Below, one piece after another: positions 3,725 through 52,457 of a stretch of 64,000 bases of DNA (positions are counted from its first letter, which is position 1; every line of letters begins with the position of its first letter). The DNA is from Emiliania huxleyi CCMP1516 (Eukaryota): positions 190,815 through 254,814 of the forward strand of contig NW_005201327.1 of assembly GCF_000372725.1 (NCBI RefSeq), given 5' to 3'. The position numbers and the translations under genes were made by a program. The notes under the pieces are model-generated. The model made no database searches and was not told the DNA's origin. It was given only the letters and a program-made list of their open reading frames with translations.

Positions 3725-3930
3725 TGCAGAATCTCGCCAGGAACCGCCGACATTGAATTTCGCTTCTTTTTCTGTGTTGAGCGAGGCGGGGTGCCGCCCG
3801 GCTACAGGCAAACAGAGCGCTATTGGCATTTTTTGAACAGAAAAGAATTCCTCATCGCAAACCCTGTCAGCAGATTCCTCCTCCCTCCGGGATGTACGTA
3901 AGAGCCACATACACTGAAAAAATCTGAAGG

Positions 3931-12738: not shown

Positions 12739-12802
<64 letters not shown>

Positions 12803-22485: not shown

Positions 22486-25153
22486 ATGCAGCTCTCCATC
22501 TTTGTCGCCACCTGGGGCCGCACGGCGATGATCCGCTCCAGGGGCATCGCCAGCTTTCTCGACGAGCTATCCGCTCGCGGTTTTGCAGGGGTCGAGGCGA
22601 CCGCAGAGGAGCTCGGAGCCTCTCTGAAGGAGCGGGTCGAGTACTGCCGCCTCCTCCAAGCGAGAGGGCTGAGGTTAATATACGCCGCCTACACGAGCTG
22701 GCTCGGCTACGAGGGCGCGCACCCGGGATTCACCACGCCGCCGGAGCACCTGGCGGCGCTGGATGCGGAGCTGGCCAAGGCGGCAGAGCTCGAGGCGGCG
22801 GCGCCTGGGACCCTCGCTCACATCAACATCCACGGCGGCTGCGACTCGTTTGACGAGGCGCAGGCGGACGAGTACTACAGCGGGGCCCTCCCACGGATCG
22901 ACGCCTTCCTCGCGACACACGCCCACCTGTCGACCGGCGCCCGCAGCGGCGTCTCGCACGAGTCGCACCGAGGCCGGCCCCTCTTCCACCCGACGCCGAC
23001 GCGCCGGCTGCTGGCCAAGCACGGGCGCGACCGGCTGAAGCTGACGCTGGATGTGTCCCACTGGCACGTCTCTAGCGAGCGGATCGTCGGGTTTGCGCCT
23101 ACCACCAACAGGCCCGACCCGGAGGCTCTGCCAGTTGTGAGCGTGAGCAGCGTCTCTTCACACCTCTAGCTGTGAACAGGCCCGACCCGGAGGCTCTGCC
23201 AGCTGTGAGCGTGAGCAGCGTCTCTTCACACCTCTAGCTGTGAACAGGCCCGACCCGGAGGCTCTGCCAGCTGTGAGCGTGAGCAGCGTCTCTTCACACC
23301 TCTAGCCGTGAACAGGCCCGACCCCGAGGCGCTCGGCGCGGCGAACGTGGAGTGGGGCGCGGCCGAGGCCGCGCTGGCGGAGGCGGCGAGGAGGGAGGAG
23401 GAGGTTCCTCCCGGTGTGGCGGCAGAGAGGCGCTGGCTGCACGGGGAGGCGTACCTCGCCGTCGAGCACGTCCACGCACGCATCGGCAGCGGGCAAAGCG
23501 CGCAGACGCCCCCGGGCGAAGACGCGGACTGGAACGCGGTGCGGCGGACCGAGATGTAGCCGCGACGTAGCCACAAGAGCAGGCAGAACGGTCTGGGTCA
23601 CGCAGGACAGCCGAGAAGTGCGTCCAGCCGGACTGTCTGCAGCGCGGTGCGCCCAGGCCGAGCAGTCTCTCTTCCCACGTCAGCGCCGTGAACAGGTGCG
23701 CGCGCACGTCGCGATGTGGAGGACGGTCTGGGGCAACCTCTCCGCCTCGGGGGCGAGAGAGGCGATCGTGACGCCCGAGTACGGGCCTGGCTACTTCACG
23801 GGCCAGAGCTGCGTCACCAAGGAGTGGTCCCCCGAGGCGCTGTGGGCGCAGACCCTCGCCGCTTCGGCGCACCTGCGAGAGGAGTTTGCGGCGTGGGAGG
23901 CTGGCCGCCCACCGACCGGCCAGGGGCCCTCGCCCGCCCTCGCGGACCTCCCCGCCCCTCCCCCTCCCCTCCCCGCACGCGTCTGCACCCTCCCCACCAT
24001 CGACGTGTCGCGCTTCGTGGCTGGCGGCGCCGCCGAGCGGGCGAGCCTGGCCGAGGAGTGGAAGGTGTCCGTGACATGTCCGTGACATGTCCGTGACGTG
24101 TCCCGTAGGCGAGCCTGGCCGAGGAGTGGGACGCCGCCTTCTCGGGCGTCGGCTTCTGCCAGCTCGTCGGGTACGAGTCCCTCCTCCCCGCCTCCGCCAT
24201 CGCCGCGCTGCGCGAGGCAGCGACCGTCTTCTTCGAGACCGAGTCGCGCGAGGTGAAGATGCGCTCGCACATCGACGGGCTCCTCGGCTATTTGGCCATC
24301 GGCGAGGAGAATGTCGCCGCCACCGTCGGCGCTGCCAACCGGGTGGCGGATAAGGTCGAGGGCCTCAACTTCTCGGGCTACGGAAGCGAGCTCAACGGCT
24401 CGCGAGGCTGGCGGTCGCGCGACCCGTGCGAGGTGCCTTGGCTCGAGGAGCCCTTCGCGCGCGCGCTGCCCGAACGGTTACGGCAAGCGGCGGCGGAGTA
24501 CTGGAAGGCGGCGACGGCGCTGATGCACGTCCTGCTCGAGCTCTCCGCGCTCGCGCTCGGGCTCGAGGCGAGCCACTTTGGTCCCTACTATGCTGAGCCC
24601 GGCTGCACGCTTCGCCTCGCGTACTACCCTCCCGGCCCGGGCGAGGAGGGGCAGCTGCGGTATGGCGAGCACACCGACTACGAGGGCTTCACCATCCTGC
24701 AGCGGCCCGTGGAGGGGGGCGGCGAGGGCAACGGCGGGCTCGAGGTGCAGCACCCGTCCGCTAGGCTGCTGGCCAGGACGTGTCCACTGACATGTCCACC
24801 GACATGTCCGGGTCCGACAGGTGCAAGACCCGCGCACGGGCTCCTGGGCGGGGGTCCCCTCGCTGCCCGACACGCTGACCATCAACATCGGCGACCTGAT
24901 GGCGCGCTGGACGAACGACCGCTGGCGAGCGACGAGGCACCGCGTGCCGGCGCCTACCGCGGGCAGCGCCGCCGCCGCGTGCGGCCGGTTGAGCTTGGTG
25001 TACTTCACCGGCCCCAACCCGAGTATGCCGGTGCATTGCCTGCCGTCAGCCAAGTGCGACTGCGAGAATCCGAAGTACCCGTCGATCACGCTCGAGGAGA
25101 ATGTGCAGGCCAAGTTGCTCGCCGCACAGCGCGGCGCCGCCGACGGCGCGTGA
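22486..25153 (+). CDS. Fusion of xylose-isomerase/AP-endonuclease-2-like TIM barrel and 2OG-Fe(II) dioxygenase (DIOX_N + 2OG-FeII_Oxy)
   Basis: GFAGVE, SHESHRGR, LTLDVSHW, HVHARIG, TPEYGP, then in the same exon LPTIDVSRF, followed by GFCQL, LRLAYYP, GEHTDY, INIGDLMARWTND, HRV, RLSLVYF. Four inferred introns. Confidence 0.8.
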
Positions 25154-25423
25154 GGGCTGGATGCGGGTGTGGCGGGTCGCGGGTGCACACTATGTACTAT
25201 AAGTTGTGACGAGACGTATCTCGTTTTACCAGTAGCCACTAGCCAGGCGTCTGGTTATTGTGTACCAGCTTTGCGGTACGGGGCGTAAAGCCGCACGAAT
25301 ACACTGATTTCGAGCCGTATATTCTCACGGAAAAAACAGACGCGTCTGAGAGCGATGATCTTGTTCAATGCCACATTTTTTGCTATGTGCTTTTACTGCT
25401 AACGCTCTCGCCGCTCGGTCTCA

Positions 25424-25830
25424 TCAGTCGGGCTTGGCATGCGGCCGGCGGAACTCCATCGCCGAGTCGACCAGCGCCCCATGGCGGATGGAGAGCAAGT
25501 CGGAGACATAGTACATGCGCGGACACCACGGCCACGCCTCGCCTCGCTTGGGCAGCTCGTCGATCGACCGCTGAATGTAGCCGGCCCCGAAGTCGAGCAA
25601 GTCGTGCCGCTCCATCGCCGGGTCGAGCGGTCGGCGCGCGGGACCTGACCGAGGGTTGGGCGGAGGCAACTTGGAGGCAGCTAGGGTGATAGAAGGTACA
25701 GAGGTCGGTGTCGTGCAGTCTCTTGCTCAACACATGCACATGCACATGTACATGTACATGTTGTTGTTGTTGAGCCGCTCGCGTCCATGAAGTTGAGGAT
25801 GCGGCACACATACTCAGAGACGATGTTGTC
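25424..25830 (-). pseudogene. C-terminal fragment of EthA/AlmA-type flavin (Baeyer-Villiger) monooxygenase
   Basis: SEYVCRILNFMD...LLDFGAGYIQRSIDELPKRGEAWPW...DLLSIRHGALVD. No N-terminal FAD-binding part upstream. Confidence 0.6.
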
Positions 25831-26305
25831 CCTCACAGAGCGCGTGGCGTGAAGAGGAGCTCCAGCGGACTGGAGGCAGGGGCTACCTCGCATATAAGAT
25901 GGAGCGCAACACAAAGGTCAACCAACTTGGACAGCTGGCGTTCGAGATCTTGCCGAGCATTCTGAACGACGGCTATGTTGATTCGCGCGACATTGAGGCG
26001 CTCCGCAATCAGAAGGGTGTCGCTGTCGGCGAGTGGAGCGTGGAGCCGCTCCAGCAGCTCCGCGACACGGGCGCGTGCTCCTACCTCATGGCGCTGCGGG
26101 CTCGGCGGCGGCAGTAGAGGGAGGGGCCGAGGGACCATACCCCCCCACCCCTGTCGATGCCTAGTCTTGGGCGGTCAGGGCCAATTAACCATACCACACC
26201 CCGCAAAAAGTTGGAACCCAGACTCGAGTCTTTCGCCGCTCCCGCCTCGGACCTGCCTCACCGCTGCGTTGCCGGCGTCGCGCGCCCTCCTGGCGGTCCG
26301 CATAT

Positions 26306-27546
26306 ATGCTCGAGCGCGTGCAGACGGCCGTGGTCGGCGGCGGCGTCGTGGGTCTCGCCGTCGCTCGTGCGCTGTCTCGCTCGGGCCGAGAGGTGCTCCT
26401 CCTGGAGTCAGAGAGCCTGACCGGCTCGGGCACGTCGTCTCGCAACTCGGAGGTCGTGCACGCCGGCATCTACTACACCGCAGGCTCGCTGAAGGCGCGT
26501 GCCTGCGTCGAGGGCCGGAGAGCGCTCTACTCCTTCTGCGAGGCGTACGCCGTGCCGTACTCGCGATGCGGCAAGCTGCTGGTTGCCACCGAGGAGGGAG
26601 AGCTCGCCCAGCTGGACGCGGTCGCGGAGAAGGCGCGCGCCAACGGGCTGAGCGGCAGCGGCGAGGCTCTCGTCCGCCTGACCTCCGCAGAGGCGGCGCG
26701 GCTGGAGCCAGAGGTGCGCTGTGTGGGCGCGCTGCACTCGCCCTCGACAGGCATCGTCGACAGCCACGCCTTGATGACGGCGCTGCTGGCGGATGCAGAG
26801 CGGCACGGGGCGACGCTAGCGCTCGGCAGCAGCGTGGTGGGGGGAGAGTGCGGTGGCAGCGATGCCGTGGCGGGCTGCGGCGCCGGGGGGCGCGTGCTGC
26901 TTCGTACAGCCGACGGCACCCAGCTCGCATGTGACGAGGTCGTCAACTGTGCGGGACACGGCGCGCCGCGACTCGCCGCCGCCTTGGGGGGGATGCCGCG
27001 CTCGCACGTGCCGGCGGCTCACTTCGCCAAGGGAACCTACTTCGCCCTGAGTGGACGGCCGAGCCCCTTCCGCGGCCTCGTCTACCCGCTGCCGCAGCAG
27101 GCGGGGCTCGGCGTGCACGCCACCGTCGACCTCGCGGGCCGCTGCCGCTTTGGGCCGGACGTCGAGTGGACGAGCAACGCGGAGGACGTGCAGGTGGACC
27201 CGACCCGCGCGGCGGCATTCTACGCCGAGGTGCGAAAGTACTGGCCGGATCTGCCCGACGGCGGCCTGGTGCCAGACTACGCGGGCGTGCGACCAAAGGC
27301 GAGAGCTGAAAGCCTGGCTGGCTGTCTGGACTGCTGCGAAGAGGCTGCCTGTTTCACAGCCTCTCGGTGTGAACACAGGTGAGCGGCCGCGGCGAGCCGT
27401 CGGCGGATTTTGTGCTGAGCGGGCCGTCGGAGCACGGCGTGGCGGGCTTGGTCCACCTCTTTGGGATCGAGTCGCCGGGCCTGACCGCCTCGCTTGCCCT
27501 CGCGCGCTTGTGCGTCGAGAGCCTCGACCGAGAGAGTGTGAGATAG
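26306..27546 (+). CDS. L-2-hydroxyglutarate dehydrogenase-like FAD oxidoreductase (LhgO family)
   Basis: [55 protein letters not shown] intron, [17 protein letters not shown]. Stop at 27546. Confidence 0.88.
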
Positions 27547-28464
27547 AGCCGTAAAAGAAGCTCCTTTTCAGGCTTTGTTTCATGTCGGACAGGCTAGACC
27601 TACGGGGTGTGTAGGGTGAGTTGACCAGGGGTTGTGCGCCGGGCCCTCCTGCTCGGCTCCAGCGAGTAGACAAGTGTTACCATCAACAGAGGAGAAGGAT
27701 ATGACCTCAGGGCTGATGTGACCAAGCGCTGGTAGCGTGGTTTAACCTCACACCCATGGTCTCACAGTGTGCCGGCAGTCGCCGAGCAGTGTCGCTCACA
27801 CAAGCCGCAGCACAAGTGACTGAGGGCCAGTGAGGGCGAGCCCATCGCTGTCACAGCTGTGGCAGCCGCACAGTAGGCTGTGTCAACTGTGCAGAGTGTG
27901 TGAGCAGCAGAGGAGCTGCTCTCCAGGCTTCTGTCGCAAAGAGCTGCATGCCACCGAAAGCATTGTCGAGGTTCGCCGAGCGCGGCGCAGGTTGGAGGAC
28001 ACCGTCACCGACGAGCGCGTTGGACTTTTCACTCCGGACAAAGACGGGGACACAGCGGACGGTGCGGGGTGTGTCCCCGTCATAGCGGCGAGGCGCGGGA
28101 CCGTCTGTGGCGAAGTGGGTCGCGTCCTCCGATATTGTTCAACCCAGCATCCACACCCTTTAAAAAGTAACGTACGTAGAGCTAGAGGGACTTTATTTCC
28201 CCGGAAAGAAAAAGAAAACGGAGGCGGACATCCCATTTCCAAACATGAAACAAGGGCTGGGAGGACGAGGAGGACAGACGTCTTTATTGCCACGCGCCAA
28301 ACAATCCCGCTCTCATCTCGCGCATCTGCGCACCAATCAGCATCAGCAGCAAGTCCATATCGCCACACGCGACTTCGGGTCGGCCTCAAAGGGGTCGGTG
28401 CCCACGTGCAGCAGGAGGGGTGCGAGAAGCGGGAGCGGCATTCGTTTTGTTGCCAGCCGCGTCC

Positions 28465-29104
28465 TCATACCCCCAAGCGCTCCGGCGCCCACGCCTCGAC
28501 CCTCTTGGGCAGCAGCTGGTTCGACAGGTCCTCTCCGTGGCCTAGGCAGCCGTGGCCGCCATGACCCCAGGTGAAGACGGCGCCGTCGGCGGTGCAAGCG
28601 ATGCAGTGGAATGCTCCAGCCGACACAGCGACGACGCGCTGGCCAGCAAAGGCCTCGACCTTCTTGGGCTGCCACTGATGCGCCGGGTCGCCGTGGCCCA
28701 GCCGGCCCCAGTCTCCATCGCCCCAGCTCCAGACGGCGCCGTCGGCGGTGAGGGCGATGCTGTGGCTGCCTCCAGCCGACACAGCGACGACGCGCCGCCC
28801 GACCAAGGCCTCGATCTTCTTCGGCAGCGGCTGGTCCTGCCGGTCGCCGTGGCCCAACTTGCCAGAGCCTCCACCACCCCAGCTCCAGACGGCGCCATCG
28901 GCAGTGAGCGCGAGGCTGTGGGTCTCTCCAGCCGACGCAACGATCACGCGCCGCCCAGCCAAGGCCTCGATCTTCTTCGGCAGCGGCTGACTCTGGTAGT
29001 CGCCGTGGCCCAACCGGCCAAAGCCTCCCTGGCCCCAGCTCCAAACGGCGCCATCGGCGGTGAGGGCGAGGCTGTGGCCGCTCGCACCCGACACAGCGAC
29101 GACG
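28465..29104 (-). pseudogene. 5'-truncated RCC1-repeat coding fragment (paralogue of 50662-52347)
   Basis: Repeats HSLALTADGAVWSWG..G.LGHGD. Begins abruptly after a copy of the U-box gene linker (GAGCTGGCGGCGGCGCTCGAGGAGAGC). Confidence 0.65.
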
Positions 29105-29213
29105 CCGTGCTCTCCTCGAGCGCCGCCGCCAGCTCCGCCGCCTCCGCCACCGCCAGTGCTGACTCATCCTCAGTCAGGCCGACGGTGGCGGGCGGCGCAA
29201 GCGTTGCGCTCTG

Positions 29214-30943
29214 TTAGCATGCGTTCGCCTCTTCCCACTCACGAATCTGCCGGCGCAGCGTGTGGTTGGGGGCGAGGAAGCTGTGCACGAGCGCCTCGCC
29301 CGTCATCGGGCTCGTCGACTTGGTCGCGAGCCAGCGCTCCATCGCCGACCGCTCGTACGAATGCCCGTCCGCCGCCATCACCGGGTCACTCATGAGCTCG
29401 GTCGTGATCGGGCAGATGAAGTCGGCCGGCGGCTCCTCCTCCCTCGGAGCCGGCGCCTCTGCGGCCGATGACGGCCCTTGCGCCTCCGCCGCCCGCCTCT
29501 CCTCCTCCAGCCTCGCGCTCTCCTCGAGCGCCGCCGCCAGCTCCGCCTCCTCTGCCGCCATCAGCGCCTCGGCACGAGCGGCGGCATGTCGCATCGCCTC
29601 CGCCTCTGCAGCCGCTCTCTCCGCCTCCCTCGCCGCTGCCTCCGCCTCCGCCTCCGCATGCTCCTCGAGGGCGCGCACGCACTTGGCGAGGCCCTTCGCC
29701 TTGGCAAAACACAGCGCCGTGTCTCCAGCCGCCGTGCGCAGCGTCGCGTCGGCGCCCGCCCGCAGCAGGCGACACACGATGGCGGAGTGGTCGGATATGG
29801 AGGCAAACATCAGCGCGGTGCAGCCGCCGCTGTTCTGCAGGTTGATCTCCGCGCCGTGCCGAATCAGCAAGTCAACCACCCGCTCGTGACCGTTGATGGC
29901 GGCGTACATCAGTGCGGTGCCGCCGCCGCTGCTCTGCATGTTGATCTCCGCGCCGTGCCGAATCAGCAGCTCGACCACCCGCTCGTGACCGTTCTCGGCG
30001 GCGTTCATCAGTGCGGAGCCGCCTTTGCTGTCCTGCTGGTTGATATCCGCGCCGTGCCGGAGCAGCAACTCGACCACCCGCTCGTGACCGTTGCCGGCGG
30101 CGTAAATCAGCGCGGTGCCGCCGTCGCTGCTGTTCTGCAGATTGATCTCCGCGCCGCGCTGCAGCAGCAACTCGACCACCCGCTCGTGGTCGTTTCCGGC
30201 GGCGATGTGCAGCAACGTGAAGCCCGCACTATCTAACGCGTTCGCCTGCCCGCCGCTGTCAAGCCACGCCAGCAGCGCCGCCTCTTCGCCTCGCGCAGCC
30301 CTACCCCTCTGCGCCGCAGCGCGCGCCGCGCGCCGCGCGCGCCCGCCCGCCGCTCACGCTCTGCCTGCTCCGCCGCCCGCCCCGCCGCCGCCTCGGCAGC
30401 CGCTCGCCACTCTCGCGACCTCTCTGCCTCCTCCCTCGCACGCTGCTCCGCCTGCTCCGCCTTTGCCGCAAGCCTGGCTTTCCGATCCTCCGCCCTCCGC
30501 GCCGCCTCAAACGCCAAGTTCTCTTGCTTCTGCCGCTGCAGCTCCGCCTCGCGCTTGCTGATCACTTTGCTTGCCATCTTGGCGGCTGCCTCTCGCCGCT
30601 GCTGCTGCTTGACCTCGGGTCGGGGCCTGAGAGAGCACAGCCATGCCCACAATCCGACGAGAAGCCGCACGAGCAACTGCTGCAAACGCGAGAGCCCGAT
30701 CGGCGGCTGCGAGTCGCCGACTGCCGGAAGCAACCGAGACCCGCCGTCGAGGACGGCCACGCCGCCGCCAACGCCGCCGCCGCCGCCCCCTCCTGCGCCG
30801 CCCTTCTTCTTGCCCTTCTTCTTCTTCCCCACACCGTCTCCGCCGCTGTTCGCCAACTTCGCCGCCGCCGCCGCCGACGACGACGCCTGCTCCTCGACGA
30901 TCAGCTCCGCCTGTTGACACCCACGAGTGTGAAGAGAGGCCAT
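29214..30943 (-). CDS. Coiled-coil + ankyrin repeats + U-box E3 ubiquitin ligase
   Basis: Several TALxxAAxNGHERVVELLL ankyrin repeats and PADFICPITTELMSDPVMAADGHSYERSAMERWL U-box. Joined to upstream ORF via a probable short GC-AG intron near 30300-30350. Confidence 0.8.
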
Positions 30944-31134
30944 TCACGGCAGCGGCATTCGCTCTCCAGCAGCCGGCTGCCTGCAGGCTCTCGGCAAGCT
31001 TGGCCGCCAGCTCTGCGTCCGCTTTGCTCTGAAGCGTGCGGGCGAGGCGGGCATCCCGCTCCTATGAGGAGATGTGGGGGAGATATGTCCGGTGCAATGT
31101 CAGGGTGTCGTACCGCATTTTACTTAATCTCACA

Positions 31135-31192
31135 CTGCTGAATACAGCTGAATACGTGTCCTCTCGAGTGCTAGATACGTATTCAGCTTCTA
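31135..31192 (-). mobile_element. Truncated remnant of introner family A
   Basis: GAATACGTGTCCTCTCGAGTGCT...ACGTATTCAGCTTCTA matches the family A 5' end. Confidence 0.65.
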
Positions 31193-31569
31193 CTTTCTCG
31201 CTCCGATGCCACCGACTCTGGCTTCTCCGATGATACCGCCTCGGCGCCGCTCGAGCCGGGCACGCCCTTTGGCGAGAGAGCTGAGTCGTACCCAAGCGCA
31301 CGCAGATCGGCCCACGTGTCCTCCGGCCGCGCCATCGTCTGCAGCTGCATCATCTCGAGAAAGCCGCGGCGCGTGAGCCTGCCCTGCCCGTTCGTGGTGA
31401 ACTCGCCCACCTGCGAGAGCTCCGCCTCGCCGAACTCCTCGCCGCCGTTGCACGTGCGCGCGAAAGACTGAAGTTCTGCCGTCGACCAGGCGCCGTCCAC
31501 GTCGGCGTCGAAGCGGCAGAAGACCTCGCCCAGCGCCGCTTCGAGCGGAGGAACGAGCCAGTCGTCCAC
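31183..31569 (-). CDS. EF-hand-containing protein fragment (start not evident)
   Basis: VFCRFDADVDGAWSTAEL and GRLTRRGFLEM...TWADLRALGYD. Confidence 0.55.
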   Translation of the reverse strand: MDDWLVPPLEAALGEVFCRFDADVDGAWSTAELQSFARTCNGGEEFGEAELSQVGEFTTNGQGRLTRRGFLEMMQLQTMARPEDTWADLRALGYDSALSPKGVPGSSGAEAVSSEKPESVASERESRS

Positions 31570-32018
31570 GTCGAAGTGCGACGCCGATTTTTCTTCTTCC
31601 AGGAGTAAAATCGCGGCGCGCGTCCTGTCCGAGCCTGACTGTTGTTCATCTTTCTACATACATACATGGCGCGCCGGTCGTGGTGTCGAACGCTGGCCCT
31701 CCCCCTCTGCTGCTTGTCCGTGCCTCTGCTCCGCCTCCTCCGCGAGAGCTCAATGGCACCCGAGTTCACCAACGACGACGGATTCATCACGTGGGCCCGG
31801 CGTTCCAAGGAGGTCATCTATCGGGTGCCGCGGGCGCTGCGATGGTTCGTGCTTACTGCCCGGGAATTGCCAGCTCGCGAGAGCCGAGAGCAGGCGCCCG
31901 CCGGCAAGCGGGTCATGACGCTTGACGGCTTGTGAGAGTTGTGTCTTCTTTTGGTTTTGATTGATCGTGTGGTTATAAACGCAGCAGCTGCTTCGCCAGG
32001 GCGTTTCTGGCCCCGGCG

Positions 32019-33133
32019 CTACTTGGGCCCATGCGCCGTGTAGCTCGCTCCCTGGTCCAAGCCCTCGCGGCCGGGCATGTCCGCGCTGTACGACCGCCAG
32101 TAGCAAAAGGCGCTCCCGCGAGTCAGCTCCCACGCCGCGTCAAAAGCGGCGCGCACTGGCGGGGGAAGCTCGGCGGCCTTGGCCATCTCGCACGCCTCGA
32201 GGTTCGCCTCCAGCTGGGCGAGCGAGGAGGCGCCGATCAGCAGCCCGTCCGTCTGGGCCAGCGCAGAGTGGCGCAACAGCCAGCAAAACGTCGCCTGCAG
32301 CAGCGGCAAGCCCGCCTCGCCGCAAGCCGCCTCGATGGCGGCTAGCGCCTGCGGGACAGGCTCGCGGACGTGTCATGGACGCGTCCCTGTCCAGGCGGCG
32401 CGCTCGGTGGCCGCGCGCGCGCGTCAAAGTTGGGCGGCGTGTAGAAGCGGGGCAGGTAGTTTGGATTGTTCTTGAAGCGGCCCGCGGGCACGTCGCCGCC
32501 TCGCTTGTGCGCGCCGCTCAACAGACCCGCCGCGAGCGGGTTGAATGCGACGAAGGAGCAGCCGTGCTCGCGCAGCAGCGGCAGCAGCTCCAACTCAACC
32601 GCGCGGTTGAGAGGGTTGTACAGCCCTTGGTACACGCTCGGCTTGGTCAGCCCGTGCTCGGCGCACAGCGCAAAGGCGCGCGCAACCTCGGACGCGTGGT
32701 AGTTAGACATGCCGACGGCGCACACCCGCCCCTCCTGCACCATCGTGTGCGCCTCGCGCAGCGACTCGAGGAGCGCCGCCTCCGTGTCGGGCTGGTGAAG
32801 GTAGTACTCTGCTAGCGACTCCACGCCAATCGCAGCCAGCGACGCGTCGAGCTGCTTCCGCATGCCCGCCGCTGTGAGCCCGCCGGGCTGCGATGGCGCC
32901 GCCTTGCTGCCGACGAGCAGGTCGGCCGACACGCAGCTGCGGCAGCTGCGTAGGGCACGGCCGAGCATCGGCTCCGTCTCGCCAGCCGCGTAGATGCGCG
33001 CGGTGTCGACGTGCCGCCCGCCTGCGGAAGCAAAGCGCTCGAGGAACTGCAGCGCGACCCTGTCGTCGACGGGTGCGCTGGCCTGGTTCCAGGCGAAAGT
33101 CATGGTTCCGAGGTACAGGCGAGGGAGGCGCAT
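32019..33133 (-). CDS. Aldo-keto reductase, AKR7 (aflatoxin B1 aldehyde reductase)-like
   Basis: LYLGTMTF, VDTARIY, YYLHQPD, GMSNY, VYQGLYN, FNPLAAGLL. GC-AG intron 32349-32422, then IGASSLAQLEANL. Confidence 0.9.
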
Positions 33134-34604
33134 GGTCGATCGCTCGCGACAGAGTGAAAGCCGCGGAGGTTGAGGCTAGAATTCTACGTCGAGAGCCAAC
33201 CGCGCGCGGCCGTCGACCGGCAAGCCGTGCGACTGTCTTTGTTTGAAGTAAAAAGTCGAATCAGAGCGCCGTCGGCGTTGTCCTGAGTTTTCTCCCCTGG
33301 ACCGCCCGTCCGGCACCGCTCCGGGACGCACGCCGGCGAAGCACCATCAAGCTGCTGTACGGCCCCGGAATCGCCTCCCCTGGCTTAGCTAAAGTGAGAG
33401 TTATTGTGCACGTGGTCAGCCTCTACAATATATGTATGTAAAAGAGGAATGCAGAAGATTGGACAGGGGAGGGACGCGTCCAAGGGGGGAACGGAGGCTT
33501 GGGATTTTGCATCTCGGCTGCATCCATGGGCCAGGGAGGCGAATGTAGACAGTGAGCGGCTGACGTCCTCGCGGGCGTGGCTGAGTACAGCCGACACTAC
33601 GTGCTGCGGCAGCCCGCGGAGTCGCAGGAGGCGCGGTGGAGCGGCTGCGCTTGGACGCGACGGCGAGGCTGGCCGGGCACGCTGTCGTCGAGAAAGGCAC
33701 GCACGTCGAGATCCTGGGTTCGCAGAGGAGGGTTCGTGTGGATGCGGTCGAGTACGACGGCTACCCGGACGCCGAGCGTCTCCTCTCGTTAGAGGAAGAG
33801 ACGTGGCTAGGCAGGTGACGCTCGGCGCCGGCAGCGCGGCCCCTAATACCAGCGGCGAGGCGAGCTCACTGGAGAGCGTGAGCCGTGGCGTGTGTGCGGG
33901 AGCCGCAGTGCGGAGAGAGCAAGCGCGAGACCGAGAGACGGTATATGTGATTTGTGTGTCGTCGATCTTGGAATTGTGAATTGGAGACGACTCTCGCAGT
34001 GACTTCAGACTTGGATCTCTCCGATGCCCGCGCCCCGGCGGCGGGGGCTGTGACTCTGAGGCAACTGGCAGTGCCTATCAGAGAGTGCCCAACAGCCCGA
34101 CAAATCACCTACCTGACAGCACCTGACAGCCTGACAGCCAGGGCTCAGGGTGGGGCGGTTGTGGGGGCTACGGAGATATTAGTCAGAGTACAGCAGGCGG
34201 CGAGTGCAGCCTTGTCCGAATATCTTATTAATCTTTAATGATCATTTGGGGAGGTCTTCTTTGAGCTGTTGCCATTGCACTTAGGAGGAGGTGCATGGCT
34301 GGGGCTGGATCCAACATGCTTGTACGAGTACACGCGTATGTAAAGCTGCTTGCGGTGACTACATGGATCATGTCTTCTTGGTATTTCTTGTTTGCCACAA
34401 AATCAAAAAGAAAACAAAAAACGAAAACAAAGATTTTGTAATACGATACAAACGGCCTCTTTTTTGCCAAGATCTTTATAGAAGAAAACTGACGGAAAGA
34501 AAAAACACCGCGGGGACCCACTTCCCCCCCCTTCCCGAAATTCAGAAATCAGTGCCAAAACTCACGAGACCTCGATACTAACAAAGACTACGATACAAGA
34601 GGTG

Positions 34605-35171
34605 CTATGTCCCGCCTGAACTCTGGCTATCACTGTATAGAAAGGAGACCGAGACCGAGTTCTCCTCGTAGAGCACGCCGTGCGCCCAGAGGCTGGGCAC
34701 AAACAAGACGTCGCCAGCCTGTTGCGTGCACTCCAGCTGGCGGCCGAGCTGACCGCGGCGCGCAGGCTCAAAGTCATCAAAGAAGTGGGCGTTGCTGTAC
34801 GATGCGTCGGCAGGAGGGTATAGGAACCACCGCTTCCGGCCGTGCAGCAATGCGCTCACCGCCATGTAGTGGAAGTGGAGGGAGGTGCCGGAGAAGGGCG
34901 AGCCCACGTTGATCTGGTAGTTGTTGAGCACCGCCATGCCGCGCGCGAGCTCGCTCACCCAGCCAGTGACGGGCTGCAGGTCTAGTAGCTCCAGGGTGTG
35001 ATTATGCAGGTGCGCGTGCGGCGCCCATCGCGCCTCGACAACGGTATCCGGCGAGAGGGTGGAGTCCGAAGCGTGCTGGCTGAGCTTGTGCTGCTCTCCG
35101 TTTTGGATGGCTTCAAACTCCGTACACTGACACTTTACCTCCCAGAGCTCGTCCCGGTCCGCCACGGCCAT
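34605..35171 (-). CDS. JmjC/cupin-8 domain protein (exon or fragment)
   Basis: GSPFSGTSLHFH...GRKRWFLYPP...CTQQAGDVLFVPSLWAHGV. Confidence 0.7.
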   Translation of the reverse strand: MAVADRDELWEVKCQCTEFEAIQNGEQHKLSQHASDSTLSPDTVVEARWAPHAHLHNHTLELLDLQPVTGWVSELARGMAVLNNYQINVGSPFSGTSLHFHYMAVSALLHGRKRWFLYPPADASYSNAHFFDDFEPARRGQLGRQLECTQQAGDVLFVPSLWAHGVLYEENSVSVSFLYSDSQSSGGT

Positions 35172-35302
35172 CCTCGGCCTCCGGAGGGCCCCCGGCCGCG
35201 GCGCGGTGCGGCGGCGTCACAAATCCGACGGCAGAGCACCGGGACGCGGTCGGGGGATCTGAGGTCCAGTGAGGCGTATGCATTCATGCCTATCCAGGGC
35301 TA

Positions 35303-36064
35303 TCACCTGGACCTATCAACAGGCGCCTGCGGCGCCGTGGTCAGGAGCTGCTGTTCACGCCGGTCCACACTTTCATAGTGGACAGTAGTGTTCCGAGGGC
35401 AAGGGAGAGAGCGCGGAGGAGAGCTGGACCAGTCGCGCTCCCACGCACGGCTGCACGCGGCGTCCGGGAGCTGTTTGTCGCGACGAGCATGGTGGAGAAG
35501 CCAGGTGGAGAAGCCCAATGTTCGTTCTAGCGGAGTGTGAGGGAACCGTGGGCTGATCATATTGGCCCATTGTGGATGCTTATTCATGTGGCGCATGTGA
35601 TCAAACTGCGAGAGGACATGGCTTCGTGGCGAGCGGAGCATGGTGACCCGAAGACCATCTCCTGCAAAGGCTGCAATGCACGACTCGCCAGTGATGAACT
35701 TGGCTGTGGTGACAACCTCTCCTAGCTGCCTGCCCAGTTCCGTGCCGGCGCATTTCGCAATGTGCACCAGCTTCACCACCGCCGCCGCGTCGCCGACTTC
35801 ATCGTGGAACGTGCGGATGGCGGCTGGAGCGTTTTGTGAAGCGCTTTGCAGGGCTTCCGGGAGCATCTCACTTGACAGGACGGTAAATCCAAAAAGGAAA
35901 GTGGGGTCTCGCACAGCGCTCTCGCTCTTCGCTGCGGCCGCGGCCGCGGCCTGCCTGTTGGCGGTGCCGGTGCGCGCCCCGCAGCGTTTGACTTTTACCA
36001 GTGTTGGTACATTGTAATTACTGACTTTGGAGGCCTGGTTCTCGAGACTGTAACGTCCACCCAT
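35303..36064 (-). CDS. Sulfotransferase-family-like domain (fragment or exon)
   Basis: LVHIAKCAGT (5'-PSB-like) and TMLRSPRSHVLSQF (3'-PB-like). Confidence 0.5.
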   Translation of the reverse strand: MGGRYSLENQASKVSNYNVPTLVKVKRCGARTGTANRQAAAAAAAKSESAVRDPTFLFGFTVLSSEMLPEALQSASQNAPAAIRTFHDEVGDAAAVVKLVHIAKCAGTELGRQLGEVVTTAKFITGESCIAAFAGDGLRVTMLRSPRSHVLSQFDHMRHMNKHPQWANMISPRFPHTPLERTLGFSTWLLHHARRDKQLPDAACSRAWERDWSSSPPRSLPCPRNTTVHYESVDRREQQLLTTAPQAPVDRSR

Positions 36065-36123
36065 ACCGCGTTGGTGTCCCAGTCGTTGGTCGGACTGTGT
36101 TTCGCCTTCCCATCAATCAATCA
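36055..36123 (+). mobile_element. Short 3'-end copy of (TCAA)n-tailed retroelement family
   Basis: CGTCCACCCATACCGCGTTGG...CGCCTTCCCATCAATCAATCA, the reverse complement of 44290-44354. Confidence 0.75.
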
Positions 36124-36809
36124 CGCCCTTGTCTCTCTCCCTTTTCTCTCTCCCTTGTACGTTCCGAGACATTTGTACCTGATGATACGATAGATTGCCA
36201 TATTAGGCAACGACCCAGATTCAGCAACGGCCGTTTTATTCCGTTTTGGCCGATCGCCCAGAGCCGTTTCAGGCCAAAAATAGGCATTTTCGGCTCTAGA
36301 CGGCGCCAACGCTTTCATTGAGCGATCCTCACACTGATTATAAAGCGCACGTGACCTACCCGGACCGTTTCGCGCGATTCGGACTCAGCAATGCCAGGAT
36401 GTCTGGGCGCACCGGCGCGTCGGTGGCAGTGGGATCGCACGCGTTCACCAGAGCCGCCGACGCGTCGAGCAGCGCGGCTCTGAGGCGGCGTTGCGGAAGC
36501 GGAGGACGTCAGTGTGCTCCGGCCTACCCTAAAGACCAAATATACCACATTCCCAACGCGTTTGAACGTCCTCTAGCGTCCACACGTGGCTGGGACACGC
36601 CTTCCTCGCGTCCCGCGGGTTCCCCAGCAGCAGCCGACGCGTCGACGAGCAGCGCGGCTCTGAGGCGGCGTTGGGGAATCCGAGGAACGCGTCGATGCAA
36701 AGGCCTCGTCGGGCTTCCGTTCACTCTACATTCACACACATTATTGTTCACTGCGCCCCACTCTACTTCGCCTTCTCCCTCGCCCACCTCCCTGCCCATT
36801 TTCAGGCGA

Positions 36810-37278
36810 TGTCAAGGTTGTCTGCCCCCTCACCAACGGCGGGGAGCATGGTCGGAAGGGCGCTTTTGTCGCCTTCGGCAGGGCGGCGATCGCCGCATAC
36901 CGTCCTATGGCGGCGAGTATCGCTACGCCAGGGAGGACAAGGACGTCGACGTGCGGCTGCTGCTGTTCGAGTCGTTCGGTGGGTTCGGGAGGATCCTCTG
37001 GGATGCGGCGAACGTGCTGCAGAACAAGCTGACGCGGGCCCAGTACCTCGATGAGGTGACTTGGACCACCAAGAGCTGGCTGGGGCTGCAGAAGCAGCGC
37101 ATCTCAGTCGTTCTTCACACGGCCATCGCAGAGCAGATTGTGAATGAGCTTGCCTGCGGCGAGGGCGGTCGAGTGCACGGAGCTAAGTGCCTCGCCACCC
37201 TCGCAGGAGTCGCTTAGGCGGCTCCCGTGGTGTACCTGTGTTAGTGCCAGTGCGCGCCAGTCCCGTGCCCAGTTGTGT
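36810..37278 (+). mobile_element. 5'-truncated CRE-like non-LTR retrotransposon (RLE C-terminus + 3' UTR), family 1
   Basis: VRLLLFESFGGFG...SWLGLQKQRISVVLHTAIA resembles the E-x-F-G ... QRLSV C-terminus of RLE LINEs. The UTR recurs as short inserts. Confidence 0.7.
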
Positions 37279-39117
37279 GATTCAAGGTCCGTCGGCCTCT
37301 TTTGACCGCGGCGTTAGAGAGAGTCTTTGCTTGTCATGCCTTTTGAGAGAGAGAGAGAGAGAATTCTTGATACGAAACCACGACGACACACACCAGTCGA
37401 CTCGCATCGGTTGCCTCCATGAACGGCGGAGCTATTCTCGCGCCCACACCACACCTGGCTCCAACGTGGACACGCCCATAGCTGGGGACACTACTAGGTC
37501 ACGCATGGCATCACAGAAGTTTTATCTCTGGGCCCCGAAAGGCATCTCTAGCAGTGTCGTTACGCATGCCCCCTCCCATCCTGGGCGCATGCGCCTCACG
37601 TCTCGCCAGAGCATAAGCCCTTGGCGTGTGGCGAGACGAGTTTTTCGCCATGCAGCGAGCAGCAAGCCGCCCGCCACAAACAGCCGGAGGCATCGCCACG
37701 GCACTGGCTGCGCCGCGCTCCCGCACCCGTCGACGAAGCTCCCCCCGCGGAAGACCGCGCGTAGCGACGCCTTGACGATCGAGATGAGCGCGCTCGAGGC
37801 TCGCCCACCTACTGCCCCTGAGAGTTGGTTACTGAGTGGGATCAGCTCCCCCCCTTGGGATCGAAGCCGCCACAACCTCACACCCAACATCTCAGGCGGG
37901 ATCAGAAGGGGACTCCACACCGGACACCGCCCGGGCACAGCCCCCCTACCCGTCGGATCGCACAGGGCCCCCTAGGAGCAGCCCACACACAATCTCGCAT
38001 CGGCAGATTGCGCCTGAGTCAGGCAGACAGCAGACAAGGAGAGGAGAGAGGAGAGAGAGAGAGAGAGGAGAGAGGAGAGGGTGAGGGTGTGTGCACACGT
38101 GAGGAGAGGGAGGGTGTCTGTGGTGGGCTATAGTCATACTACGTGGTTAGAACCACGCGCCCCTCAGGAGCTTAAGGTAGAGCTGAGCGTCCAAGACGCC
38201 TCGGTGCCACCCACCGGCGTGAAGACCATCCGGATCTATCGGGTTCGCCCTCCGGACGGACCCGTCCCCGCGATGGCCCACGGTCCTCCGTCGCCTGGTT
38301 GACCCCCTGCCTCCCGGTTGAACCCCCAGTCCTCGTAGTCCATCATGAAATAAACTCAAAGATCCACCACAGCCACCACCCTCCGCCTCCACCGTCGAGC
38401 CGCGATCGCTGCCGCCCGCGACGCCGCCCGCCGCGTCAGATTGCCGCGACACGCGCCTCGAGTCCAGTCGGAGAGCCGCGCCGCATCAGCAGCAGCATCA
38501 GCACCAGCACCACCAGCACCACCAGCACCACCAGCACCAGAGAGAGGCGCAACCTGCCCGACGCCACCCGCCGTGTCAGCTGCTCCCAACGCGCGTCTCG
38601 AGCCGAGTCGCAGAGCCGCGCCGCGCCAGCAGCAGCATATGCACCAGCTTCAGCAACATCACCACCACCAGCAGCACCAGAGAGACAGTGCAGTGTGACA
38701 GCAGCGCACAAGCGCTCGCAGAGCGGCGCGCAGCGCCGCGCACGCCACGCCGCGGGCGGTCCGACGAGCGCAGCGTACGTCGGCCGCGAGCCGCGTCACC
38801 AGCCGTCTCGCGAGAGAGCGGCGCCGCCGCGTGCGCGCAGCAGCCGCCGCGGCAGAGGCGAGCCGCGGCGACGTCCGCACTAACGGATAACTGCCATTGG
38901 CGGTTTTAACTCTCTCTCTCTCTCTCTCTCATGCCTTTTGCCTTCTCAGTGGCTTCTCGAGGTTCTCGAGCTCTGGCGCTCCCGCTCCTGGCCGGTGTGA
39001 TTACACCGACACGTATGTCTCTGTAGAGGAAAAGAAACTCGCGTCTCTCTTGCGTCACTTTGTGCCCGCCGCCTTAAATTTCTTTTTGCCGAGCCTGCTT
39101 GGGCACTTAGACTAGTG

Positions 39118-41476
39118 ATGGCGCCCAAGCGGCAGCGCAGCGCAGCACCAGCTGCAGCGCCTGTCCACACCGGCCGTGTCGTACTCGATGTCGGCGGCAC
39201 TCGCTTCGTTTCATCGCGCTCGACGCTCGAGGGTGCCTCCTCCTACTTTCGCTCACTCCTCGTGCGGTGGAGCCCGGTGCGCCAACACAGACGCCGCAAG
39301 CTGCCTGGCGTGCACTCTGAGACCGCTCTGCCATCCCTCCTTATCACCGTGCGGCACGCGAGGATTGCCGTGCCGCCGCTCCACGTCCGCACGCGTCTCT
39401 CCTGCAGGCGACGCCGGACGATCCGATCTTCCTCGACTGCGACGCCGACGCGTTTGGCGTGCTGCTCTCGCACATGCGCGTGCCGTCATGCGTGCTGCTG
39501 CCGCCCGGCGACGTCGGCCTCGCCACCCGCGTGTTGCTGCTCGCTGAGTACCTCGGCCTCGACGGATTTCTCACGGCGATCAAGGCGAGGGCCTACTCGC
39601 ACATGCACAGCAGCTGCAGCACCGCCACCGACGCCGCAGCGGCCACAGCCTTCGACGAGGAGGCGGGAGGCCTGCAGCAGGCCATCGATAAGCGGCTGCT
39701 GCCGGCTCGCTTCTTCGCGCCGGAGCCGCCGCCGCCGCCGCCACCGCCAGAGGCCACCGAGCCGCAGCAGCTCCTCGCCGCGCCGGGCGCTTTTCTTTTT
39801 TTGACGGCGGGCGGCATGTCGTTGTTAGGCGACCGTTCAGACGCTCATCCCGGCGGCAGGCTTCACCGCAATCTTCGCAGACGACGAGATCGACCTCGAC
39901 GACGATCTCCCGCAGGATCTCCCGACACCTCCCCACACCTCCCCATCTCTCGCCATATCTCGCCAGATCTCCCCAGATCTCCCCAGATCTCCGGCCGCAG
40001 GTGCACTCGGTGCACCGCGTGGTCTCGCTCGCTCTGGTGCAGCTGGCCGACGGCAGCCGCGAGGTGGACGCGCTGATCCAGCCAAACAACAACGAGCTTG
40101 AGCCGCGCGGAGGAGAGCGCACGAGGTCGCAGATGGTGCTGGCCTCTGAGCACGCGCGCGACATCCCGTGGGTGCACTGGGTGCTGCGCCCCCACCCTAC
40201 GGCCACAGGACCGAACCCACGCTGGGTTCGAGACCCTGGAGTGTATGGTACTAGGTGCTCAGCCCCACCCTACGGCCACAGGACCGAACCCACGCTGGGT
40301 TCGAGACCCTGGAGTGTATGGTACCAGGTGCTCAGCCCGGCGCGGCTGCCCTCCCTCCTCTCGATTGCGCCCGGTACCGTCCGTGGCCGCTGGGTCACTC
40401 CCTCCCTACGAGCGGGCCGAGCTGTGAACGGCGTCTCTTCACGGCTGCAGCTGTGAACAGGTGAAGCCGGGTCACTCCCTCCCTTCCAGCGGGCCGAGCT
40501 GTGAACGGCGTCTCTTCACGGCTGCAGGTGTGAACAGGTGAAGCCCGCGTTCGAGCAGGCCGACTTGGGCAGGGCGATCGAGATCGCACACGGCGCGGTG
40601 ACGGTGGGCGGCGTGCGGCGGCGCGTGGACTGGGAGGGGGAGGTTCCCGGCGATTTGGCCGGTACCATACACACCGTCACGAGCGAGTGCGGTGTGAACG
40701 GCGTCTCTTCACGGCTGCAGCTGTGAGCAGGCACCATACACACCGTCACGAGCGAGTGCGGTGTGAACGGCGTCTCTTCACGGCTGCAGCTGTGAGCAGG
40801 CACCATACACACCGTCACGAGCGAGTGCGGTGTGAACGGCGTCTCTTCACGGCTGCTGCTGTGAGCAGGCACCATACACACCGTCACGAGCGAGTGCCGC
40901 GGCGACGTGATCGTCCGGCGGGCCGATGACACCTACAGCTGCTTTTGCAACCCGAGCGCCGCGCCCACCGACGCCGCCGAGGCCGACATCGCCTTTGCCG
41001 AGGTGATGGGCCCGACTTGTCGGGACGGAATCTCGCGCAATCTCGGGGTGATCTCGTGCAATCTCGCCAGGTGATGGACCCGACGTCGGAATCTCGCGCA
41101 ATCTCGGGGTGATCTCGTGCAATCTCGCCAGGTGATGGACCCGACGTCGGAATCTCGCGCAATCTCGGGGTGATCTCGTTCAATCTCGCCAGGTGATGGA
41201 CCCGACTTCGGGACGGAATCTCGCGCAATCTCGGGGTGATCTCGTGCAATCTCGCCAGGTGATGGACCCCACGTCGGGCGGCGACTCGCTGCGGGCGCGC
41301 TTTCTCGTGCCGGTGACGGGCGTCGGGCGTCGGGACGGAATCTCGCGCAATCTCGGGGTGATCTCGTGCAATCTCGTTAGGTGACGGGCTCGGGCGTCGG
41401 GACGGAGAAGGAGCTGACGCTGGCCGACGTGCGCAACATCGCGATGGGCGAGCGGCGCGTCTGCGGCGTCACCTAA
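39118..41476 (+). CDS. BTB/POZ (KCTD-type) domain protein, multi-exon
   Basis: VVLDVGGTRFVSSRSTL...YFRSLL, IFLDCDADAFGVLLSHMR, LLAEYLGLDG. Downstream exons inferred across repeat-filled introns to TAA at 41476. Confidence 0.7.
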
Positions 41477-42044
41477 GGCAGAGGTACGTCGACGTATTTC
41501 TTTTTCTAGGCGAGCGGCGTTTCTACGGCTTCACGGGCGTGGCACGAGCGTGACAGCCACTGCCGCCGCGGGCCGCGCACACGCGCGATGCCATTCACCT
41601 TCCCGCCTCCGCGACTTCGTCGTATGTGGACCGGAGGCTTGCCGGTGCATTTGCAGTGGCATTTGCCGAGTGAGCGCGAGCCGCATTAGTGGCCATGGGC
41701 TCAGCAGCCGCGAGCGAGCAGCGCACGAGGTAGCGCTTTTTTATGTATGTAAAGAGGGACGGCTCGATTGGTCATTCTCATTGGACGGAGCGGGTGGACG
41801 CGACCACAAGGGGGGGGACCTCCGCGGGGCTCCGGCAGCCTCCGGGGCGACGCCGACGCGGCTGCTTTTGGGTTGTAAATAAATAAATAAAATGCGAAAC
41901 GGACACCACTACTGTGAGATTCGAGTGAGATGGTGTAAATCTAAAAAGGAACAGGTCCCCGCCCGTGAAGTAAAAACGGCGGTTTGATTGGGATTTTGCA
42001 CATCCGCAGCTGCATCCAATGGCGCTTGGCGGATGGCTGAGCCC

Positions 42045-52347: not shown

Positions 52348-52457
52348 GCGGAATCGACCCTATCCAGTGCTTTCAAGTGCTCAAGAAAGAAAAGGACCGA
52401 CTCAGACAGCTGAGACAGCGGACAGCGGTGCAGATGGACAGGTCTCTCAGGTGACAG

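What the first reader, a model, noticed from the sequence alone, without database searches (positions are those of the whole stretch)
23112..40868. Insert family B (…CGTCTCTTCAC…GTGA(A/G)CAG) forming tandemly amplified introns in two genes
The same ~40-50 bp insert ends introns 23112-23315 (3 x 68 bp), 23539-23695, 40394-40537 (2 units) and 40662-40868 (3 x 69 bp). Each repeat unit is host-exon duplicate + insert, so every unit has its own donor and acceptor. The array looks CRISPR-like but the variable part is local exon sequence. It could allow recursive splicing or copy-number change by unequal crossover between the duplicates.
Basis: partly seen in the sequence, partly recalled or inferred. 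Interest (0 to 1): 0.75.

Follow-up and report, generated by a model that had tools for sequence, protein, structure and literature searches.

The report
Introns born from duplicated exon starts
In the bloom-forming alga Emiliania huxleyi, a 40-base sequence found at more than a hundred places ends short introns whose first 20-35 bases repeat the start of the next exon; these introns were likely made by copying the tail of an existing, often neighbouring, intron into an exon, and some then likely grew into tandem arrays, which offers a testable route by which new introns arise.

Summary
Confirmed, and wider than reported. The host is Emiliania huxleyi. The ~39-nt insert occurs at 110 distinct sites in a capped metagenome scan. 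At 84 of 110 it follows a 20-36-nt duplicate of the downstream exon start, which supplies the GC/GT/GA donor; the insert supplies the AG. Sites are in sense orientation (59 of 66), and removing the unit restores the frame (50 of 66). Transcript-labelled proteins read straight across both gene-2 arrays. Inner array units are exon/intron hybrids, as unequal exchange predicts, and other samples likely hold one unit. Unrelated inserts share the architecture. Neighbouring introns carry pieces of each other's exon duplicate (4 of 24 pairs, background 0.47%), which points to local copying of intron tails rather than a MITE. E. huxleyi introners are already listed in supplements (Gozashti 2022, 2025); their fam24 is probably this family, with a 2-nt TSD and unknown mechanism. 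I did not find the long duplication, neighbour copying or arrays described in ten searches. Recursive splicing is unsupported. This scan earlier noted one similar single intron in another genome (e1-9966787).

The parts
22486..25154 (+). Gene 1: xylose-isomerase-like TIM barrel fused to a DIOX_N/2OG-Fe(II) oxygenase part, about 720 aa after four introns are removed
   Evidence: Stop-free model; weak Pfam hits, with only the 2OG-FeII_Oxy hit in the last exon above its cut-off; first exon 99% identical to EMIHUDRAFT_195881
23112..23315 (+). Family-B array intron, 3 x 68 nt, GC..AG; each unit is about 18 nt of exon duplicate plus the insert
   Evidence: relatives P0003, P0004 and P0007 run through the junction without insertion; any retained unit gives a stop after aa 227
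23539..23695 (+). Single family-B intron, GT..AG, 157 nt, duplicate decayed and extra sequence inside
   Evidence: P0007 and P0008 align across the junction
24041..24108 (+). 68-nt intron of the same build (22 of 24 nt exon duplicate) with a different insert (11-nt repeats); the next intron 24745-24820 carries the same repeat type
   Evidence: modelled, no transcript seen
30911..30980 (-). Tenth, diverged family-B copy ending a predicted 70-nt GC..AG intron upstream of an ankyrin/U-box coding region; duplicate largely decayed
   Evidence: the same site was found in a metagenome contig (L114); splicing not shown
39118..41560 (+). Gene 2: BTB/POZ-like protein of about 419 aa with nine introns, four of them tandem arrays (the end coordinate is approximate)
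   Evidence: P0015 (MMETSP transcript label) and P0019, P0021, P0023 match the spliced model; RNA contig joints at the first and third introns; weak BTB_2 hit below cut-off
40181..40327 (+). Two-unit array intron with an unrelated insert ('family C'), 74 + 73 nt
   Evidence: spliced in P0012 and P0015; one-unit versions in P0010, P0011, P0022, two-unit in P0013
40394..40537 (+). Family-B array intron, 67 + 77 nt, GT..AG; the second unit is 8-10 nt of fresh exon copy plus a copy of the whole first unit
   Evidence: spliced in P0012, P0015, P0017, P0021, P0023
40662..40868 (+). Family-B array intron, 3 x 69 nt; about 29-nt exon duplicate; first unit GT, inner units GC like the exon
   Evidence: spliced in P0012, P0015, P0019 and others; the first unit in six other database proteins resembles the window's last unit
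41003..41258 (+). Four-unit array intron with 10-nt-repeat insert; units 1 and 4 carry 11 nt that match the exon duplicate of the next intron
   Evidence: spliced in P0015
41313..41380 (+). 68-nt intron, likely source of the 41003 insert (same 42-nt tail apart from 2 nt)
   Evidence: spliced in P0015
41448..41509 (+). 62-nt intron with exon duplicate (20 of 24 nt) and a T-rich unrelated filler, found by the de novo scan
   Evidence: P0015, P0019, P0021, P0022 and P0023 end in the spliced reading

Best explanation
These are spliceosomal introns of Emiliania huxleyi, each built from a 20-36-nt duplicate of the next exon's start (giving the GC/GT/GA donor) and a ~40-nt insert ending in CAG (giving the acceptor); they likely arose when the 3' tail of an existing intron, often the neighbouring one, was copied into an exon, and arrays likely grew afterwards by unequal exchange between the two exon copies. 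Shown: the architecture, dispersal to more than 100 sites, sense orientation, exact splicing of the gene-2 arrays, the hybrid make-up of inner units, and carry-over of exon-derived bases between neighbouring introns. Inferred steps: (1) a break or stalled synthesis about 27 nt past a G|G[CTA] site; (2) a template switch, helped by a few matching bases, onto the tail of another intron, copied through its AG; (3) return to the G|G[CTA] site, which duplicates the exon segment; (4) selection keeps products that splice exactly and reach about 65-75 nt; (5) misalignment of duplicate and exon adds or removes whole units without changing the mRNA. Whether the template is DNA or the transcript/excised intron is not resolved; I put it at about even odds. 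Family B is one successful tail lineage among many, and the arrays are likely neutral.
For: Duplicate at 84 of 110 sites, threshold at the 99th percentile of 2000 cross-pairings; reverse-complement control 2 of 110. The base after CAG, not part of the search pattern, is G in 103 of 110. Sense 59 of 66 and frame restored 50 of 66, with a model right on 32 of 33 held-out windows. Pfam hits 7 of 75 sense against 1 of 75 antisense, the one being a bacterial sequence joined at a contig end. Spliced proteins. The 5' edge of the insert is ragged (0-10 nt) while the 3' end is fixed. Adjacent sites share 7 or more nt upstream of the core in 4 of 24 pairs against 0.47% of 8356 background pairs, all four 121-177 nt apart. 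In L041 and at window 41003/41313 the shared bases derive from the neighbour's exon. Neighbour pairs are on the same strand in 29 of 31. Unrelated inserts have the same build: 49 AG hits, 6.9 per 1000, against 1.4-4.1 per 1000 for eight control dinucleotides. Inner units switch from exon-type to intron-type bases.
Against: 20 of 24 adjacent pairs show no carry-over, and neighbour similarity overall is modest (p about 0.01, pairs not independent). Gene conversion between two existing neighbouring introns would also give carry-over. Dispersal across the genome needs long-range events that local copying alone does not explain. 26 of 110 sites have no detectable duplicate; some look decayed, some are probably chimeric contigs, some may be whole-intron moves. 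The search pattern included the AG tail, so the fixed 3' end is partly built into the search. Junction overlap at the 5' edge is not consistently positive. No empty allele of any site was seen, so gain rests on relatives at about 65% protein identity.
Confidence: 0.6

Rival explanations
1. Family B is a non-autonomous mobile element (SINE-like, moved by target-primed reverse transcription by a non-LTR or Penelope-type enzyme that cuts the two strands 20-36 nt apart), and each insert family is a separate element.
For: One consensus at more than 100 unrelated sites, with recurring identical copies. A ragged 5' edge, fixed 3' end and variable duplication are what such enzymes leave (recalled knowledge; long duplications of about 22-49 nt for CRE/SLACS-clade elements are also recalled, not checked). 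The catalogue of 2025 treats an apparently matching family as an introner.
Against: No A-tail or other 3' tail; the element is only about 39 nt. Dozens of unrelated fillers, many unique, share the build. Exon-derived bases pass between neighbours. No reverse transcriptase or transposase family was hit in 128 of the 143 window ORFs of 170 aa or more that were scanned, which says little for the genome.
Confidence: 0.25
2. Generic repair of staggered double-strand breaks captures filler DNA (the Daphnia model), and shared inserts arise later by gene conversion among introns.
For: Direct repeats flank 33 new Daphnia introns (PMC4202315, passages). Many fillers here are unique or low-complexity. 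Conversion would explain neighbour carry-over.
Against: The Daphnia repeats are 4-12 nt, here the median is about 26. Young sites with near-perfect duplicates already carry the full family-B insert (45 of 84), so the insert came with the event.
Confidence: 0.1
3. The arrays are functional devices for recursive or stepwise splicing, or for regulation by intron retention.
For: Every inner junction is CAG|GC or CAG|GT. P0017 reads from the exon into a unit-2-type sequence of the 41003 array, which fits use of an inner acceptor. Intron retention is common in this species (PMC4028052, passages).
Against: Only 17 of 131 sites are arrays. Unit number appears to vary between samples. No partial product of a family-B array was seen among the gene-2 proteins read. 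Any retained unit gives a stop. P0017 may come from an allele with other units.
Confidence: 0.04
4. The arrays are assembly stutter of single-unit introns.
For: Proteins from other assemblies imply one unit at 40662 and 40181. Some metagenome contigs are visibly mis-joined at the insert.
Against: Units carry private bases, and inner units are exon/intron hybrids. Arrays occur at 17 of 131 sites in independent assemblies. P0013 holds two family-C units. A contig in runs X1 and X6 starts at 23295, where a 31-letter graph would branch if a further unit followed (an inference).
Confidence: 0.03

Closest known systems
E. huxleyi CCMP1516 introner families in Gozashti et al. 2022 (PMC9860276, Suppl. 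Tables 5-6: 653 elements, 5 families) and 2025 (PMC12130899, file sd07: fam24); supplement rows seen
   Same: fam24 is listed as 5 introns of about 70 nt, with '10bp terminal direct repeats', co-opting the 5' site and carrying the 3' site, class unknown. Family 3 of 2022 has mean length 70 and 158 copies. Family B has this length, a 10-nt direct repeat at both ends of the insert and this splice-site logic, so it is probably the same family.
   Different: Their TSD call is '?' (2022) or 2 nt (2025); here the duplicate is 20-36 nt. The rows say nothing on arrays or neighbour copying, and neither main text mentions huxleyi (for 2022 the preprint text). Identity is unproven: the insert motif was not found in either supplement (the 2022 file is cut).
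MITE-type introners of Micromonas, Aureococcus, Symbiodinium and Polarella (10.1101/2020.10.14.339549 part 1 of 4 read; PMC11282704 passages)
   Same: [quoted passage not shown]
   Different: Those have fixed 3-8-nt TSDs and mostly terminal inverted repeats. Here the duplication is variable and 3-8 times longer, makes up about 40% of the intron, and the insert has direct, not inverted, ends.
[quoted passage not shown]
   Same: A duplicated exon segment supplies a splice site; direct repeats flank the new intron.
   Different: In pure duplication the whole intron is exon copy, whereas here a foreign intron tail is inserted. In Daphnia the repeats are 4-12 nt and the fillers mostly have no known source; here the filler is a recurrent family traceable in some cases to the neighbouring intron.

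Membership tests
Introner (broad sense: family of similar introns made by insertion) | Similar sequence in many introns of unrelated genes | tested here: met
Introner (broad sense) | Removed by splicing with the reading frame restored | tested here: met
   Transcript-labelled proteins across 40394 and 40662; frame restored at 50 of 66 other sites. For gene 1 only relatives' proteins show it; one search found no spliced E. huxleyi product besides the database model P0002.
Introner (broad sense) | Recent gain: intron absent from orthologues or polymorphic | tested here: inconclusive
   P0003 appears to run into an intron of its own further on yet crosses junction 23112 uninterrupted, which suggests absence in that relative; its DNA was not seen, and no empty allele in E. 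huxleyi was found
Introner (broad sense) | Mobilised as a transposable element by an identifiable enzyme | not testable with these tools
   No genome held; no such family hit in the 128 window ORFs scanned
MITE / DNA-transposon introner | Terminal inverted repeats | tested here: not met
   The ends are direct repeats; the internal inverted arms fold no better than shuffles in 5 of 6 stretches and do not covary
MITE / DNA-transposon introner | Short TSD of fixed length | tested here: not met
   Duplicate 16-42 nt, median 26, in 38 young sites; the two longest are cut-off arrays
Non-LTR / SINE-type insertion | Variable TSD with ragged 5' end and fixed 3' end | tested here: met
   the fixed 3' end is partly imposed by the search pattern
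Non-LTR / SINE-type insertion | 3' poly(A) or simple-repeat tail | tested here: not met
   The insert ends in CAG, followed directly by the exon
Non-LTR / SINE-type insertion | Derived from a structured RNA or with an autonomous partner | tested here: inconclusive
   No Rfam match at E up to 1 in 22400-41600; partner not searchable without the genome
Intron gain by pure tandem genomic duplication | The whole intron is a copy of adjacent exon sequence | tested here: not met
   About 39-45 nt of each unit is foreign to the host exon
CRISPR array | Constant repeats with distinct foreign spacers and cas genes nearby | tested here: not met
   The variable parts are copies of the local exon, the same within an array; no cas family hit in the 128 ORFs scanned; eukaryotic host
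Recursive splicing | Inner AG|GY junctions present | tested here: met
Recursive splicing | Intermediates or lariats at inner junctions | tested here: inconclusive
   Only contigs and database proteins were available; none for family B, one ambiguous case for the 41003 array (P0017)

The most novel reading that the evidence does not exclude
E. huxleyi makes most of its new introns by one element-independent process: any spliced intron's 3' tail can be copied, from RNA, into a nearby exon of the same gene at a cut staggered by about 27 nt. Introns thus beget introns in chains along a gene, 'introner families' here are lineages of intron tails rather than transposons, and the long duplications make each intron an expandable array.
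Probability: 0.25. Interest if true: 0.88.

Novelty: new variant of a known kind. Interest (0 to 1): 0.63.

Why it matters
How new spliceosomal introns arise is an open question, and about 72% of catalogued introner families have no assigned mechanism (PMC12130899, passage). Here each young intron keeps a record of its birth: a long exon duplicate that dates it against its own exon, an insert that can be traced to a donor intron, and junction bases. This is in a cultured, much-sequenced alga, so donor-recipient chains, empty alleles and DNA-versus-RNA templates can be tested directly. The rule would also help explain the species' unusual GC-donor majority (PMC4028052), since donors are taken from GC-rich exon sequence, and why its gene models are often wrong. 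For example, the database model P0002 stops inside intron 23539 and lacks seven residues at junction 23112.

Tried and rejected
Whole-genome search: no genome is held. Viral-contig scan: 3 matches, not examined further and taken as chance. Laying four runs on 22400-41600 was swamped by repeats; only two gene-2 joints, neither at a family-B intron, were among the 15 shown, with 413 not shown. No read-level view of the arrays was obtained, so inner-junction use and unit numbers remain open. Hairpin covariation of the insert: not supported (mean 1.73 pairs against 1.79 shuffled). Folding: z between -0.9 and +1.2 for five stretches, -3.7 for one unit plus exon, so no conserved structure is claimed. 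The first codon-model run had mis-set training boundaries and gave 54 of 66 and 46 of 66; two repair runs crashed; one search is the corrected run. The de novo duplicate scan of the window alone was dominated by Gly-rich repeats and showed weak enrichment (11 against 6-10 per 1000). A rolling-circle origin of arrays was rejected because inner units begin with exon-type, not first-unit-type, bases wherever this is informative at the 5' end. The search with gene-1 exon 2 returned only P0002. Read et al. 2013 (Nature genome paper) is not held and may describe these introns; I recall that it mentions tandem repeats in introns. von Dassow 2009 passages gave no description of the build. Ten paper searches (listings only unless cited as read) found no description of it. 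Earlier scan notes by sequence and by place: nothing.
Full report
Observation. The four stretches are as described. The motif pair matches 9 times against 0 in 100 shuffles. A tenth, diverged copy lies on the minus strand at 30911-30980, upstream of a minus-strand ankyrin/U-box coding region. The insert is about 39 nt: a 10-nt word, a CGTCTCTTCAC core, a variable 10-nt middle, and the same 10-nt word again, ending in CAG. The window is 64% GC, and the first exon of gene 1 is 99% identical to an E. huxleyi CCMP1516 protein. GC donors are the majority in this species (PMC4028052, passages).

These are real introns. Removing 23112-23315, 23539-23695 and two further introns gives a stop-free frame of about 720 codons; keeping one, two or three units of the first array stops it after residue 227. 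Relatives at 65-67% identity (P0003, P0004, P0007) cross the first junction without insertion, and P0007 and P0008 cross the second. No spliced E. huxleyi product of gene 1 was found apart from the database model P0002, which is mis-modelled at both junctions. For gene 2, P0015 (MMETSP transcript label), P0021 and P0023 read exactly across 40181-40327, 40394-40537, 40662-40868, 41003-41258, 41313-41380 and 41448-41509. P0019 does so from 40662 on, and P0012 across the first three (15 of 23 and 8 of 8 cluster members were listed). RNA contigs of two studies join across two upstream introns of this gene, one with a GA donor.

The family is dispersed. The 138 matches reduce to 110 distinct sites with enough flank. 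The base after CAG, not in the pattern, is G in 103 of 110 (GC 52, GT 43, GA 8). At 84 of 110 the sequence before the insert repeats the sequence after it, above the 99th percentile of 2000 cross-pairings; the controls gave 2 of 110 and 6 of 104. Projected donors are GC 37, GT 30, GA 8 and other 9. Unit length has a median of 69 (10-90%: 65-74). In 38 young sites the duplicate is 16-42 nt, median 26. Arrays and short flanks were dropped for the next test, leaving 66 of the 84 sites. A codon model trained on window genes (32 of 33 held-out windows correct) of 66 sense and finds the frame continuous after removal of the unit in 50 of 66. Pfam on the downstream flanks of the first 75 of 84 eligible sites hit 7 in sense and 1 in antisense; that one is a bacterial cytochrome b gene mis-joined to an array at a contig end. 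The 26 sites without a duplicate include decayed copies, expanded introns and probable chimeric contigs.

The architecture is not special to family B. In the window, other predicted introns of 62-77 nt have the same build with unrelated fillers; one of them, 41448-41509, was then confirmed by transcript proteins. In 176 kb of fetched loci, 49 non-B duplicates of 58-82 nt end in AG: 6.9 per 1000 sites against 1.4-4.1 for eight other dinucleotides. Not every intron shows it; 39277-39407 and 39916-40000 do not.

Neighbours copy each other. With a relaxed pattern there are 161 copies at 131 sites; 29 of 31 neighbour pairs are on one strand, and their variable parts are somewhat more alike than chance (p about 0.01). 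Four of 24 adjacent pairs share 7-10 nt just 5' of the core, against 0.47% of 8356 background pairs, and all four are 121-177 nt apart. In L041 the shared bases are exon duplicate at one site and foreign at the other. In the window, units 1 and 4 of the 41003 array carry 11 nt that belong to the exon duplicate of intron 41313, followed by the same 42-nt tail. Introns 23112/23539, 24041/24745 and 40394/40662 are also pairs that share an insert type. This is best read as copying of an intron's 3' part into a nearby exon, though gene conversion between existing neighbours is not excluded.

Arrays. Seventeen of 131 sites have two or more units (short-read assemblies may collapse others). Where first unit and exon differ, inner units carry exon-type bases first and intron-type bases after. 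This holds at window 40662, 40181 and 41003 and at L022, L081, L111 and one L021 unit (which has one late exon-type base). At 23112, L082, L097 and L123 only intron-type bases show, which fits an early exchange point; L024 and L071 are uninformative; L006, L013, L039 and a second L021 unit do not fit and look mis-joined. This is the pattern expected from unequal exchange or slippage between duplicate and exon. In six database proteins the first unit after the 40538 exon ends like the window's last unit. Family C appears with one unit (P0010, P0011, P0022) or two (P0013). So unit number probably varies between strains, unless assemblers collapsed the repeats. Two alleles differing by about 50 nt of intron were reported for another gene of this species (PMC2784329, passage). 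Contig ends at 23134 (X6) and 23295 (X1, X6) fit a multi-unit array in other DNA (inference). Retaining any unit is non-productive, and no inner-junction product of a family-B array was seen.

Mechanism. I favour (0.6) template-switch copying of an intron tail between two copies of a ~27-nt exon segment, filtered by selection for exact splicing, followed by neutral expansion; DNA or RNA template is unresolved. A dedicated retro-mobilised element is the main rival (0.25). Generic break repair with later conversion (0.1), functional recursive splicing (0.04) and assembly stutter (0.03) follow.

Comparison. It works like an introner that carries the 3' site and takes the 5' site from its target duplication (10.1101/2022.06.06.494994, passages; 10.1101/2020.10.14.339549, part 1 of 4). 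It fails the MITE tests: no terminal inverted repeats and no fixed short TSD. Supplement rows list E. huxleyi introner families; fam24 (about 70 nt, 10-bp terminal direct repeats, co-opt 5' and carry 3', TSD 2 nt, class unknown) is probably family B, though no sequence was there to check. Tandem-duplication and break-repair routes of intron gain are known (PMC3443670 and PMC4202315, passages), but with all-exon introns or 4-12-nt repeats. Ten searches found no account of the long duplication, neighbour carry-over or arrays. The 2013 genome paper and its supplements could not be read and may bear on this.

Verdict. Real, spliced, dispersed; a new variant of introner-like intron gain, with a family that is probably already catalogued but an anatomy and likely mechanism that I did not find described. 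Interest 0.63.

Noticed in passing
window 39916-40000 (+): Intron with a GA donor and 10-nt repeats; an RNA contig joint in runs X10 and X12 fits it and P0012/P0015 read across it.
   Followed up: partly
window 39753-39828 (+): 76-nt GC..AG intron inferred from P0012 and P0011; its start resembles the next exon only weakly.
   Followed up: partly
window 18163-18239, 18942-19016, 20127-20199, 59672-59741 (-); 46704-46778, 63613-63682, 63872-63942 (+): Further predicted 70-77-nt introns with a downstream-exon duplicate and unique fillers; splicing not checked.
   Followed up: partly
window 32015-33133 (-): Aldo-keto reductase gene whose single intron is joined across in an RNA contig; exact boundaries ambiguous.
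   Followed up: partly
window 1-560, 3930-4500, 11290-12920 (+): Long Gly-rich 15-nt-period coding-like repeats, three related blocks.
   Followed up: no
window 28468-29163 and 50665-52359 (-): Two RCC1-repeat regions with 156-nt period; very high summed contig depth at 28169-28809 suggests a large gene family.
   Followed up: no
L024, L025: The 'family C' insert of window 40181-40327 recurs at other loci with their own exon duplicates, so it is a second dispersed tail family.
   Followed up: partly
L007: Chimeric contig: an algal family-B array joined to a bacterial cytochrome b gene through a shared stretch of about 17 nt. The insert is a likely source of mis-joins in short-read assemblies.
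   Followed up: yes
L084, L050: The insert itself varies by a ~29-nt period: an extra partial period in L084 and an internally shortened form in L050.
   Followed up: no
P0012, P0029, P0030, P0033: A gene-2 variant about 95% identical that leaves the window's sequence after the 40869 exon start and has another C-terminus: a paralogue, an allele or a chimeric transcript.
   Followed up: no
P0003, P0042: In a related organism the gene-1 orthologue seems to run into a tandem-repeat intron at a different position, which hints at independent gain of repeat-filled introns there.
   Followed up: no
window 2570-2669 and 19065-19919: Two assembly gaps (N runs).
   Followed up: no
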